From NCBI GenBank assembly GCA_951406725.2, contig OX597826.1, positions 83,638,001 through 83,702,000 on the forward strand: 64,000 bases of DNA. The letters run 5' to 3'. Below the pieces are notes generated by a model, which ran no database searches, was not told where the DNA came from, and worked only from the letters and a program-made list of their open reading frames with translations. Both the position numbers and the translations under genes were made by a program. Positions 6,590-39,327 of the stretch are shown one piece after another; positions within the stretch are counted from its first letter, which is position 1; every line of letters starts with the position of its first letter. The stretch is from Octopus vulgaris (lineage: Eukaryota).

Positions 6590-6812
6590 TTAAATTGTTT
6601 CAGCTTTAAAGCTGCATTCACGCTAGGGCATCATTATATATATCCTTGAAATATGAGACTAGAAACAGCCAACAACTGATGAAGGGTTCTTTATGTTTGT
6701 TTTGTTTTCCATTTGTGTCTTTTGTTGTTTGAAAGAATAGTTTATGTTCAATGTACTCGTGCATCGTACTTTTTTGCTGTACATGTTTTGTGATATCCTG
6801 TGCCCATATATG
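6590..6812 (+). mobile_element. Short (TA)n-embedded repeat with degenerate permuted-hammerhead motif
   Basis: CCTTGAAA..ACAACTGATGAAGGG, a T-rich stretch, then CCTGTGCCCATATA. Same layout as the 35225, 36335 and 38920 copies. Confidence 0.6.
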
Positions 6813-15512: not shown

Positions 15513-15593
15513 TACAGTTCTATATTTAAGAGATGAAGAATTATGAACATTATTTACATTTGATGGATATTTGTCCTCATCTTGTTTGTTGTT

Positions 15594-15639
15594 AACACAA
15601 CGTTTTGGCTGATATACCTTCCAGCCTTCATCAGGTATC
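15594..15639 (-). ncRNA. Minimal type I hammerhead motif (G12>A)
   Basis: GAUAC CUGAUGA A GGCUG-loop-CAGCC AAAAC GUU GUGUU. Confidence 0.7.
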
Positions 15640-16608
15640 TTGGGGAAATTTCGAACCTGGGTTCTCATTCCTAAGGTATTTTTGGATGTTATTATTATTA
15701 TTATTATTCAGATGAATGCCTGGAATCGAACTTGGAATCTTGTTAGTAGCCCACACTCTTAACCACTACGCCATATGCCCGTGGGCAATTATGGAGTGAA
15801 TTTTAGGGCTTATAAATTTAATATCTTCCTATCCTTCCTTAATACCGGTTTCCCATATGCTGTTCATATCTGCACTTGGTCTGCTTAGGAGGTTGTTGTG
15901 TCTTAGCATATGTGCTGCTTCTTTTAGTTTTCCTATTTTCCAGTGGTGTTCTCTGTCTACTATTTTAACTTCATCCCACAGAGGGAGGTGGTCTCCATTT
16001 TTCCATACAACTACATAAGCAACAACTACCCCAAAAGCATACTCTCCTCTCCAATTATGAAGAAAAGAGAGGATGAAACCAATAAACTGTCCACAGTCTG
16101 TCTACCCTATGTGAAAGGCCTCTCTGAAAAGATACAAAAGACATGTGGCCCATATGACATCAGGACAGTATTCAAGAGTCATACAACACTTTGCAAATAT
16201 CTTCTTTGAGTAAAACAACCAACAGAAGAGAATATGATCAAGAACTGTGTGTACTCCATCCTATGCAGTTGTGGTAGGTTATACAAAGGCAAAACATACT
16301 GTCTCCCTCAAAATAAGGGTAGAGGAACATTGCAAAGCTGTGACATGGGGAGATATTGATAAATCGGGTAAAGCTGATCATGTGTGGAAAAATGGAGATC
16401 ACCTCCCCCTGTAGGATGAAGTTAAAATAGTAGACAGAGAACACCACTGGAAAATAGGAAAACTAAAAGAAGCAGCACATATGCTCGGATACAACAACCT
16501 CCTAAGCAGACCAAGTGCAGATATGAACAGCAGATGGGAACCGGTATTAAGGAAGGATAGGAAGATATTAGATTTATAAGCCCTAAAATTCACTCCATAA
16601 TTGCCCAC

Positions 16609-35224: not shown

Positions 35225-35392
35225 TAATTTGCTTTGCAAAAAGGCCTGTTTTAATGAAGTGACGTCTTGTCCCTACCTTTGAAATGTGGAGTAGATAAAA
35301 CAGGGAACAACTGATGAAGGGAATGTTCTTTATGTTGCCTGTCACGTTTCTCATTCTGTTGACATTTCTTTGATGTCCTGTACCATATATGC
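35225..35392 (+). mobile_element. Short repeat carrying a permuted hammerhead motif
   Basis: Same layout as 36480-36700. Ends CCTGTACCATATA. Confidence 0.75.
35261..35321 (+). ncRNA. Non-circularly permuted hammerhead ribozyme candidate
   Basis: GACGU C|UUGUCCCU A CCUUU GAAA UGUG ..AGGGAACAA CUGAUGA AGGG. Confidence 0.7.
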
Positions 35393-36334: not shown

Positions 36335-36696
36335 AAAAAAGCCCTCATTGTTGGTTTCCTTGTCCTGTTTTTATGCTTTATATGTTCTGTATTTTTTATT
36401 TTTTGTATTGCTTTTACGTCCTGTTCTTGTCACTTTCTTTCCTTTTTTTTACTCCTCTGCAAAAAGAATTTTATTTAATTCATTTTGCAGGAAGGACTGC
36501 TTCGGCCGGATCATGTTCTGCCCTTACCTTCGAAACACGCATTGAGTTGAACCAGGGGCAGCTGATGAAGGGGAATATTCCTTGTATTGTTTGTCTTGTA
36601 CTCTGTTTTTTTCGTTGTTAAAAAAAGTCCGTTTCCTTGTTTGTTTTTATGTTTTCTTTTCTCGTTGTGTTCTACGTTTATTTGTGGTGTCCTGTA

Positions 36697-36740: not shown

Positions 36741-36835
36741 TGTATATATACATATAGATGTAGGTATGTACATATATGTATGTATGCATATATTTTATTT
36801 GTTAAATTGTTATTATATATATATATATATATATA

Positions 36836-37570
36836 ATGGTTGTATACTGTCAATCTAACAAGAACGTGACAGTAGGGGGTACACCACCATTATATAGCCC
36901 TAGGAGGTATCGAACGCCTCCTGACAGCTTCAACACATTTTATCCTGTGTCCTTATATACACATACGAAGGGGAGACAAACACCCCCAACTGCCGGAACT
37001 GCATCTAGGAAACTCTTCAATAGACACAATTTAAAAATTAGTTTTAGTTCAACTACCAATTTTAAAAACATAATCAATCATAACATACAAAAAACACAAG
37101 AAGAAAACAGCTGTTCATGCAGGAATAAAGAATTGTGCCCGCTAAATGGAGCTTGCATGTCCAAGACCATCATATATGAAGCTACCGTAAACTCTATAAC
37201 CACTAAAGACACCGTTTCGACGAAGAAATACGTGGGCCTGACAGAGGGTAATTTCAAGGCCAGGTTCAATAACCACACTTTGAGCTTTAGGCACTGGAAC
37301 AAAAGAAAAGCGACACAATTATCCAATCATATTTGGTCTTTAAGAGATAAAGGTGTCGATTATAACATACAATGGAAGATTTTGGCCAGATGTAAGCCCT
37401 ACACTAACGGCAGCGGAAGGTGCGGTTTATGCGACATGGAGAGATGGCTTATCTGGAAAAGCAGCTTAGACCCTACCACATGTCTAAATACAAGGACAGA
37501 GCTTTTCGGATCATACCCACATGTGACTAAATTTCTGTTACGTTTTTGGTCCCCTAAAGAAAACGGATAG
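36836..37570 (+). CDS. GIY-YIG endonuclease ORF of a Penelope-like element (244 aa, no RT)
   Basis: CSCRNKELCPLNGAC, IIYEA..YVGLTE..FKARFNNH, WKIL, CGLC..E, LNTRTE. This Cys pattern resembles Hydra-clade PLEs (from recall, not tested). Confidence 0.8.
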   Translation: MVVYCQSNKNVTVGGTPPLYSPRRYRTPPDSFNTFYPVSLYTHTKGRQTPPTAGTASRKLFNRHNLKISFSSTTNFKNIINHNIQKTQEENSCSCRNKELCPLNGACMSKTIIYEATVNSITTKDTVSTKKYVGLTEGNFKARFNNHTLSFRHWNKRKATQLSNHIWSLRDKGVDYNIQWKILARCKPYTNGSGRCGLCDMERWLIWKSSLDPTTCLNTRTELFGSYPHVTKFLLRFWSPKENG

Positions 37571-38546: not shown

Positions 38547-38763
38547 TGAGAAGGTGCTAAAAAGTTCCTGGCTTTCAGGGTCTCATGAAAAGCCTGGTTG
38601 GAGGCCCAAGCTTCTGAGTTCTTTTACAGGGCTTAGAAAAACTTAAGGACCACTGCAATAAGTGTGTGAATCTGAGAGGAGAATATGTTGAATAGAATCA
38701 TAATTAACTGATCCTCCAGTATTTTCTTGTACCCAAAGCCAAGAACTCTTCAGCACCCCCTCA
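38547..38763 (+). mobile_element. Mariner-derived MITE
   Basis: ~29-bp TIRs TGAGAAGGTGCTAAAAAGTTCCTGGCTTT / AAAGCCAAGAACTCTTCAGCACCCCCTCA, TA flanks, internal KCVNLRGEYVE*. Confidence 0.9.
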
Positions 38764-39000
38764 TATTGTATGCTACAAAACCTCCAAAACCATAAACCCT
38801 TAATTAAGTATTATCCTAGCTTGAAAAGACTATGAACATAGACAATCATACAACATTAGTATATTTGATAACACCAACATTACAACTACCACAAACCATG
38901 AACTCTGTAACTTGCCAGCCATATGAGAATGAAGGACAACTCAGAATAATGATACACAAGACATAAAAGATTCACAGACAACAAATGTATCAAAGACATA

Positions 39001-39060
39001 TTCCCTTCATCAGCTGCCCAATGGATATCATTATGGTTTTGACACCTAGGAGTACCATTC
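39001..39060 (-). ncRNA. Permuted hammerhead family copy (degenerate)
   Basis: Minus strand reads AUGGU A|CUCCUAG GUGUC AAAA CCAU ..UUGGGCAG CUGAUGA AGGG. Confidence 0.6.
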
Positions 39061-39327
39061 AGTTTGGCAATGTCAACTACATTAAAAATATATATATATC
39101 TTGGTGTGTTTTAAAGCATTAAAATGTCAGAGAATGAGATTTGGTGGCGGGGGGGGGGGCTGTTTGATTGAAAATGATGCTGTAAATGAAACTCATAAAA
39201 GATGATGTAAAATACCTGTTAGGAAATAATGGAGAGAATCACTCCCAGGAATGAAACTCTGAGTCCATCAATTACGAAACAGTGATGGTAACCCTTACAC
39301 CAGGATGACTCCGACAAACTAAATATG

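What the first reader, a model, noticed from the sequence alone, without database searches (positions are those of the whole stretch)
39001..39060. Minus-strand permuted hammerhead supplying the clearest compensatory changes
Seen: stem III is AUGGU/ACCAU (5 of 5 pairs, a different sequence from the other copies) with a GUA triplet. CGAAA appears as CAAAA, consistent with CpG decay. The stem II strand is eroded, so this copy is probably inactive.
Basis: partly seen in the sequence, partly recalled or inferred. Interest (0 to 1): 0.7.

Follow-up and report, generated by a model that had tools for sequence, protein, structure and literature searches.

The report
Split-core hammerhead leaves cutting footprint
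This is a worn-out copy of a scrambled-order hammerhead RNA from the tail of Naiad jumping genes, which were reported to lack one; its core is predicted to be split by an extra junction, and shortened copies across the genome start at or just after the predicted cut site, so the intact form likely cuts itself.

Summary
Partly confirmed. Stem III (5 of 5), the GUA triplet and CpG decay of CGAAA are real, but stem II is not eroded: its partner lies upstream (GACAU, 39074-39070), 5 of 5 paired. The copy (38763-39092, minus) belongs to a repeat lineage that forms the 3' UTR of Naiad Penelope-like retrotransposons (17 of 30 reverse-transcriptase loci carry it downstream). Across 14 family representatives the upstream stem II pairs in 70 of 70 cells with G10.1-C11.1 kept; the canonical register pairs in 46. 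The order is S-G-C with block C broken at A9/G10.1, predicted to be bridged by a four-way junction. Published Naiad consensus ends from four phyla show it (read by eye). Genomic sign of cutting: copies truncated at (TA)n start downstream of the predicted cut in 77 of 83, 18 of 24, 90 of 97 and 54 of 55 loci in four families. This copy is likely dead (G12A, stem I deletion, 5' truncation). I found no paper describing the fold. This scan reported the same fold before on other DNA (six notes); a word search found no note on the truncation footprint. Cleavage has not been assayed.

The parts
38763..39092 (-). Whole repeat copy: 5'-truncated 3' end of an old Naiad-lineage element (family T, old subfamily), 5' end in a short (TA)n run
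   Evidence: Local alignment to the majority of 29 relatives covers 39092-38763; 1093 first-look candidates, 40 scored
39075..39083 (-). Remnant of the 3' strand of hairpin P0; its 5' strand and the 5' strand of helix PX are lost by truncation
39070..39074 (-). Stem II 5' strand (GACAU, G10.1 first), detached from CUGAUGA
   Evidence: 5 of 5 pairs with 39045-39041
39059..39069 (-). 5' strand of the stem I-II interaction helix (decayed here) and the GA of a predicted kink-turn
   Evidence: kink-turn consensus recalled
39053..39058 (-). Stem III 3' strand and GUA triplet; predicted cut between 39053 and 39052
39048..39052 (-). Stem I 3' strand with a one-base deletion
   Evidence: alignment
39033..39045 (-). 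Block G: stem II 3' strand, GAAA box with G12A (39040), stem III 5' strand
39020..39032 (-). 3-nt bulge, GA, and 3' strand of the interaction helix
39007..39019 (-). Stem I 5' strand and CUGAUGA core
39001..39006 (-).
   Evidence: In intact relatives it complements the strand just 5' of P0
36453..36573 (+). Sister copy, family B, nearly intact (stem II 5' strand 36491, predicted cut after 36517, core 36562)
35233..35321 (+). Sister copy, family C, decayed (predicted cut after 35266, core 35311)

Best explanation
The stretch is a decayed, likely inactive copy of a hammerhead-type RNA from the 3' UTR of Naiad Penelope-like retrotransposons, whose intact form likely cuts itself and is predicted to have its core split at A9/G10.1 by an extra junction. 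Shown in sequence, 5' to 3': a flanking strand, hairpin P0, the stem II 5' strand, an interaction-helix strand, block S (stem III 3', NUH, stem I 3'), a 2-5 nt link, block G, the other interaction strand, stem I 5' with CUGANGA, and a strand complementary to the 5' flank (PX). Inferred: PX, P0, stem II and the core meet in a four-way junction, flush in some families and with a 2x2 loop in others. The core would stack on stem II as in ordinary hammerheads; a kink-turn would bend stem III toward the interaction helix in several families; the fold would complete only after its last strand is transcribed. Inferred role: cutting processes read-through or tandem transcripts. The 3' cut product is still reverse-transcribed, leaving short copies whose 5' ends fall at or within about 20 nt after the cut. 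This copy starts 40 nt upstream of the cut, so it would come from an uncut template.
For: Upstream stem II pairs in 70 of 70 cells (69 Watson-Crick) over 14 family representatives, with four unrelated helix sequences and G10.1-C11.1 kept (one G-U by decay); the canonical register gives 46 of 70 (25 Watson-Crick) and fails at 10.1 in 3 of 14; stems I and III give 68 and 63 of 70. With core, stem I and stem II held unpaired, the fold closes P0 directly before the stem II strand in 12 of 14. 17 of 30 best Naiad-RT C-terminus loci carry the motif within 1.5 kb downstream in sense (RVT_1 E 1.3e-5, below the curated cut-off). Published consensus ends of Naiad_Obim/Ovul contain the same motif with CGAAA; the same wiring with other helix sequences is seen by eye in a ctenophore, three corals and a clam shrimp. 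5' ends at (TA)n junctions lie downstream of the predicted cut in 77 of 83 (family B), 18 of 24 (this lineage), 90 of 97 (F, first 100 of 532 rows) and 54 of 55 loci (C); binomial p 3e-15, 0.005, 1e-17, 5e-17. In F, 14 start at +1 against 1 at a better microhomology site two bases upstream. The density falls again by +30.
Against: No cleavage assay. The 14 representatives are related, and the upstream partner was picked as the best match in a 26-nt window (unique best over the whole context in 8 of 14, tied with a core-overlapping strand in 6). A flush four-way junction was recovered by the energy model in only 3 of 14; PX was offset or shifted in 5 and absent in 6, including both T majorities. 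One representative (G2) was mis-parsed at block S. A loose descriptor separated real from reversed DNA only weakly (score 22 or more: 5 against 1 in 464 kb). Junction positions were read by eye, microhomology blurs them by 1-2 nt, and indirect junctions are easier to catch near the anchor. Families B, C, D, F, G were not linked to a reverse transcriptase. In an Anolis Poseidon element hammerhead cutting was not needed for insertion in vitro (PMC11167929 passages).
Confidence: 0.85

Rival explanations
1. Ordinary type-SGC hammerhead with block C intact: stem II forms with the bases after CUGANGA plus one bulged base and is merely weak or eroded.
For: In families B, C, D, E and H the strand after the core gives 3-5 pairs with G-U wobbles, and G10.1-C11.1 is possible in 11 of 14. 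A bulged base at 9/10.1 is usual in Penelope hammerheads (PMC4209133). Some arthropod Naiad ends look like intact SGC by eye.
Against: Only 25 of 70 cells are Watson-Crick; the three F representatives cannot form 10.1-11.1; the downstream strand stays G-rich while the pre-GAAA strand changes, and the upstream strand tracks every change. In the clam shrimp record the core is followed by CCCC.
Confidence: 0.07
2. The split is repaired at the RNA level: splicing, back-splicing or a tandem/circular transcript joins CUGANGA to the stem II strand and gives a type-CSG ribozyme like those of nematode Naiads.
For: In B, D and E the stem II strand follows a pyrimidine-rich tract ending in CAG; six nematode Naiad ends are CSG by eye; family D occurs as tandem dimers.
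Against: The CAG is the 3' strand of hairpin P0 and varies with its partner (GCGG in several C copies; GUU in T; UGG in F); no GT donor follows the core in any family shown.
Confidence: 0.04
3. The fold is a conserved non-catalytic structure (protein-binding or RT-pausing signal), and the 5'-end step comes from RT stalling or an internal transcription start.
For: No assay exists; structured RNA can stall RT (general knowledge); ends spread over about 20 nt rather than one base.
Against: All catalytic boxes and NUH are kept in young copies. The step sits between -1 and +1 in four sequence-distinct families. By the time RT reaches +9 to +1, the downstream partners of those bases have already been copied, so no helix remains to stall it (inference).
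Confidence: 0.04

Closest known systems
Type-SGC hammerhead (HRIMA-1 and variant) and type-CSG/GCS, Eckert et al. 2023, PMC10085705 (read parts 2-6 of 8 and passages; supplements not seen)
   Same: Non-circular block order, short link from stem I 3' to stem II 3', a helix joining stems I and II, all core nucleotides.
   Different: Their scheme assumes block C is unbroken; here it is split at A9/G10.1 with P0 and PX inserted. Theirs came from metatranscriptomes, metagenomes and one bacterial candidate; this one is in an animal genome in thousands of first-look candidates.
Naiad clade of Penelope-like elements, Craig et al. 2021, PMC8557442 (passages, section 6, supplement part 24 and record ends 113-164 of 210 hits seen)
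   Same: The motif is the 3' end of the Naiad_Obim and Naiad_Ovul consensus records; (TA)n targets, 5' truncation, partial tandems.
   Different: The paper reports no canonical hammerhead in Naiads and only flags 'HHR_core' and 'HHR_half_core' strings, without a structure in the parts I saw.
Type I minimal hammerheads of Penelope-like elements, Cervera and de la Pena 2014, PMC4209133 (read part 2 of 4)
   Same: Hammerhead in the terminal repeat of a Penelope-like element; tolerance of an extra base between positions 9 and 10.1.
   Different: Circular order C-G-S, tiny palindromic stem III, works as a dimer; here a full stem III, reversed order and a two-helix insertion at 9/10.1.
Non-LTR retrozymes (bioRxiv 10.64898/2026.07.22.740005; part 1 of 5 and passages seen)
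   Same: Non-coding tandem units with a hammerhead, proposed to be moved by Penelope-like elements; family D (about 840 bp, 98-100% alike, tandem) fits.
   Different: Retrozymes are defined with type I hammerheads and were sought with type I descriptors.

Membership tests
Hammerhead ribozyme | CUGANGA, GAAA and NUH core | tested here: met
   Met in intact families; this copy has G12A
Hammerhead ribozyme | Stems I, II, III with covariation and G10.1-C11.1 | tested here: met
   68, 70 and 63 of 70 cells paired, 1-4 Watson-Crick pair types per position
Hammerhead ribozyme | Site-specific self-cleavage after NUH | not testable with these tools
   Indirect support only: 5'-end step at the predicted bond in four families
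Hammerhead types I-III (Rfam) | Circular block order; match to an Rfam model | tested here: not met
   No hammerhead match at E up to 10 on 38900-39200; no Rfam match at gathering score in 4 loci with intact copies
Type-SGC hammerhead (Eckert 2023) | Order S, G, C with short S-G link and stem I-II helix | tested here: met
   Links of 2-5 nt; interaction helix in the folds of most representatives
Type-SGC hammerhead (Eckert 2023) | Block C unbroken: stem II 5' strand directly after CUGANGA | tested here: not met
   Partner lies 21-27 nt upstream of the cut in 14 of 14
Naiad Penelope-like element | 3' UTR downstream of a Naiad RT, sense strand, (TA)n target | tested here: met
   17 of 30 RT C-terminus loci; published consensus ends. 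Holds for the lineage; this copy has no ORF left
Naiad Penelope-like element | N-terminal GIY-YIG endonuclease before RT | not tested
   No full-length copy was recovered
Kink-turn | 3-nt bulge followed by tandem G-A/A-G pairs (consensus recalled) | tested here: inconclusive
   Regular in T, F and H1, irregular in B, C, D; absent in the coral and clam shrimp records by eye

The most novel reading that the evidence does not exclude
A hammerhead topology outside the six published block orders: the catalytic core is opened at A9/G10.1 and rebuilt by a four-way junction. It is active in animals of at least four phyla, is the ribozyme that Naiad retrotransposons were said to lack, and drives a still-mobile family of retrozyme-like repeats. 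Its in vivo cut site can be read straight from the genome as a step in the 5' ends of truncated copies.
Probability: 0.75. Interest if true: 0.85.

Novelty: new variant of a known kind. Interest (0 to 1): 0.8.

Why it matters
It would overturn the published assumption that CUGANGA and stem II must be contiguous, move non-circular hammerheads from anonymous environmental RNA into animal genomes, and explain the 'half-core' puzzle of Naiads. Whether Penelope-element hammerheads cut in vivo is an open question (none of the Anolis RNA-seq reads ended at the site). The truncation footprint offers a genome-only readout of it. A young family with copies 98-100% alike supplies intact sequences for a direct assay.

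Tried and rejected
Rfam on the whole window gave microsatellite-driven miRNA-type hits below gathering score in the 150 of 178 rows shown. Splice-acceptor reading of the CAG before stem II: rejected, it is a hairpin strand. Antisense-ORF reading of family T: the frames are broken and the RT lies upstream in sense. A GIY-YIG search led to a Neptune-like family with no such motif in 1.5 kb flanks, so it is not the partner. Sequencing runs: no RNA holder listed; 20 of 24 rows hold half or more of the words, all as contigs; 4 were laid and gave no table of ends and one uninformative joint, which is no evidence either way. A metagenome pattern scan gave 46 matches, none with the stems. MAFFT alignments across families put stem II strands in different columns, so no covariance model or tool-based pair count was made; pairs were counted in a script. 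The loose descriptor was barely above its reversed control. One search was biased toward positions near its anchor and is not counted (2 of 38 upstream); one search listed only 100 of 152 rows (14 of 34 loci at +1 to +4, 20 over -1 to -26). Literature searches finding no description of this fold: (open-licence library only; supplements of PMC10085705 and of preprints not seen).

Full report
Observation. On the minus strand the stretch reads stem III 3' strand, GUA, stem I 3' strand, a two-base link, a 5-mer, the GAAA box as CAAAA, stem III 5' strand, a spacer, stem I 5' strand and CUGAUGA. This is the order S-G-C, which cannot be reached by circular permutation of types I-III (PMC10085705). 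Rfam has no hammerhead match here and no match at gathering score on four loci with intact relatives. With both core boxes fixed, 14 of 200,000 shuffles reproduce the stems.

What the copy belongs to. The genome is 2.8 Gb and the stretch is a dispersed repeat: 1093 first-look candidates, 40 scored, 70-84% alike. The copy spans 38763-39092 and is cut at its 5' end in a (TA)n run; around the ribozyme it matches the majority of its subfamily in 92 of 105 aligned columns. Craig et al. 2021 report that Naiad Penelope-like elements lack canonical hammerheads and flag 'half cores'. Their Naiad_Obim and Naiad_Ovul consensus records end in this motif with CGAAA, and Naiad_Omin ends in sequence resembling the upstream part of two old copies (by eye). 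In this genome 17 of the 30 best matches to the Naiad RT C-terminus carry the motif within 1.5 kb downstream in sense; these include the query's own locus. One such piece scores RVT_1 at E 1.3e-5, below the cut-off. The host is octopus-like by that likeness; I did not determine the assembly.

CpG decay. Among 29 of 29 close relatives the C11.1-G12 dinucleotide is CA 14, CG 8, TG 6, TA 1, the same pattern as neighbouring CpG sites. The ancestral G is therefore inferred, and genomic copies decay neutrally.

Stem II is upstream. Further families with the same core order were collected from the window, from own-genome searches and from 400 kb of arbitrarily placed stretches. For 14 representatives (5 majority lines, 9 single copies) the 5-mer before GAAA has its partner 21-27 nt upstream of the cut: 70 of 70 cells paired, 69 Watson-Crick, in four unrelated helix sequences, G10.1-C11.1 kept. 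The canonical register after CUGANGA plus one base gives 46 of 70, 25 Watson-Crick, and fails at 10.1 in the three F representatives. Stems I and III give 68 and 63 of 70, with one representative mis-parsed. The representatives are related and the partner was chosen as best in a window; over the whole context it is the unique best in 8 and ties with a strand overlapping G8-A9 in 6.

The junction. With core, stem I and stem II held unpaired, the energy model closes a hairpin (P0) directly before the stem II strand in 12 of 14. It pairs the bases after A9 with the strand just before P0 (PX) flush in 3, offset or shifted in 5, and not at all in 6; by eye the old T majority has a 7-bp PX complement. 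Core, stem II, P0 and PX would form a four-way junction inserted at 9/10.1, the position where Penelope hammerheads usually carry one extra base. A 3-nt bulge with tandem GA between stem III and the interaction helix fits a kink-turn in T, F and H1 and is irregular elsewhere (consensus recalled; lead from e1-8665526). Reading the published Naiad ends by eye, the split form with other helix sequences appears in a ctenophore, three near-identical corals and a clam shrimp; six nematode records are type CSG with block C intact; some ostracod and spider records look SGC; many records, among them the bivalve and hemichordate ones, show no core in the last 350-450 nt seen. These were not computed.

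Footprint of cutting. If the RNA is cut, cDNA made from the 3' product cannot extend past the cut. I listed copies whose 5' end abuts (TA)n within about 15 nt either side of the predicted bond and read the starts by eye. Family B: 85 rows, 83 loci, 77 downstream and 6 upstream; T-microhomology sites at +2, +7, +12, +13 hold 43 against 3 at -1, -2, -4, -7. This lineage: 26 rows, 24 loci, 18 downstream, 4 of them at +1/+2, none between -10 and -3. Family F: first 100 of 532 rows, 97 loci, 90 downstream, 14 at +1 against 1 at the better microhomology site two bases upstream. Family C: 59 rows, 55 loci, 54 downstream. Binomial p values are 3e-15, 0.005, 5e-17 (C) and 1e-17 (F). A downstream control in B gave 8 loci at +12 to +18, 8 at +19 to +30 and 2 beyond, plus one deletion, of 19, and the upstream side was flat to -26, so this is a peak beside the cut and not a gradient toward the 3' end. 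Limits: junction blur of 1-2 nt, easier capture of indirect junctions near the anchor, no ribozyme-free control family.

This copy. G12, the general base (PMC6155905), is A; stem I has a one-base deletion; the interaction helix is broken; the 5' strands of P0 and PX are gone. It starts 40 nt upstream of the cut and would derive from an uncut template.

Against. No assay; RNA runs gave contigs only (no evidence either way); a loose descriptor barely beats its control; the non-coding families were not tied to an RT; hammerhead cutting was dispensable for insertion in vitro in an Anolis element.

Novelty. [quoted passage not shown] Eight library searches found no description of this fold; unseen supplements or subscription papers could hold one. 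Six earlier notes of this scan reached the same fold on other DNA; I saw them after recording my own model, and they are not independent evidence. A word search for the truncation footprint among them returned nothing. Verdict: new variant of a known kind, interest 0.8; the family carries the interest, not this dead copy.

Noticed in passing
L201:3090-4090; L279-L293: Family D: non-coding unit of about 840 bp with an intact split-core ribozyme, 40 scored copies 98-100% alike, partial-tandem arrays, fixed 3' end in (TA)n; likely mobile now and retrozyme-like.
   Followed up: partly
L141-L146, L144:1268-4968: Young Neptune-like Penelope element with an intact 781-codon RT-GIY-YIG frame, an overlapping upstream 479-codon frame and tandem repeats in its 3' UTR; no hammerhead-like core pair seen in 1.5 kb flanks by a simple scan.
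   Followed up: partly
window 15590-15640 (-): Decayed canonical type I Penelope-style hammerhead with the extra A at 9/10.1; its stem II sequence equals that of split-core family F.
   Followed up: no
window 6640-6690 (+): Another copy that starts in (TA)n about 10 nt after the predicted cut, i.e. one of the short cut-product-type copies.
   Followed up: no
families B, C, D, H (e.g. window 36567-36571): The bases from G8 onward repeat the stem II 5' strand and could pair with the pre-GAAA strand in an inactive fold; not kept in T, F or G.
   Followed up: partly
PMC8557442 supplement, bivalve, hemichordate and some hydrozoan Naiad ends: These lack the hammerhead core but share a different GC-rich 3' motif that may be another structured RNA.
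   Followed up: no
window 36806-37567 (+): 254-codon open frame ending like a C-terminal GIY-YIG Penelope fragment (Pfam E 0.014), right behind the family B copy.
   Followed up: partly
G000:C29:9440149-9441693: Five tandem partial copies of family T about 350 bp apart.
   Followed up: no
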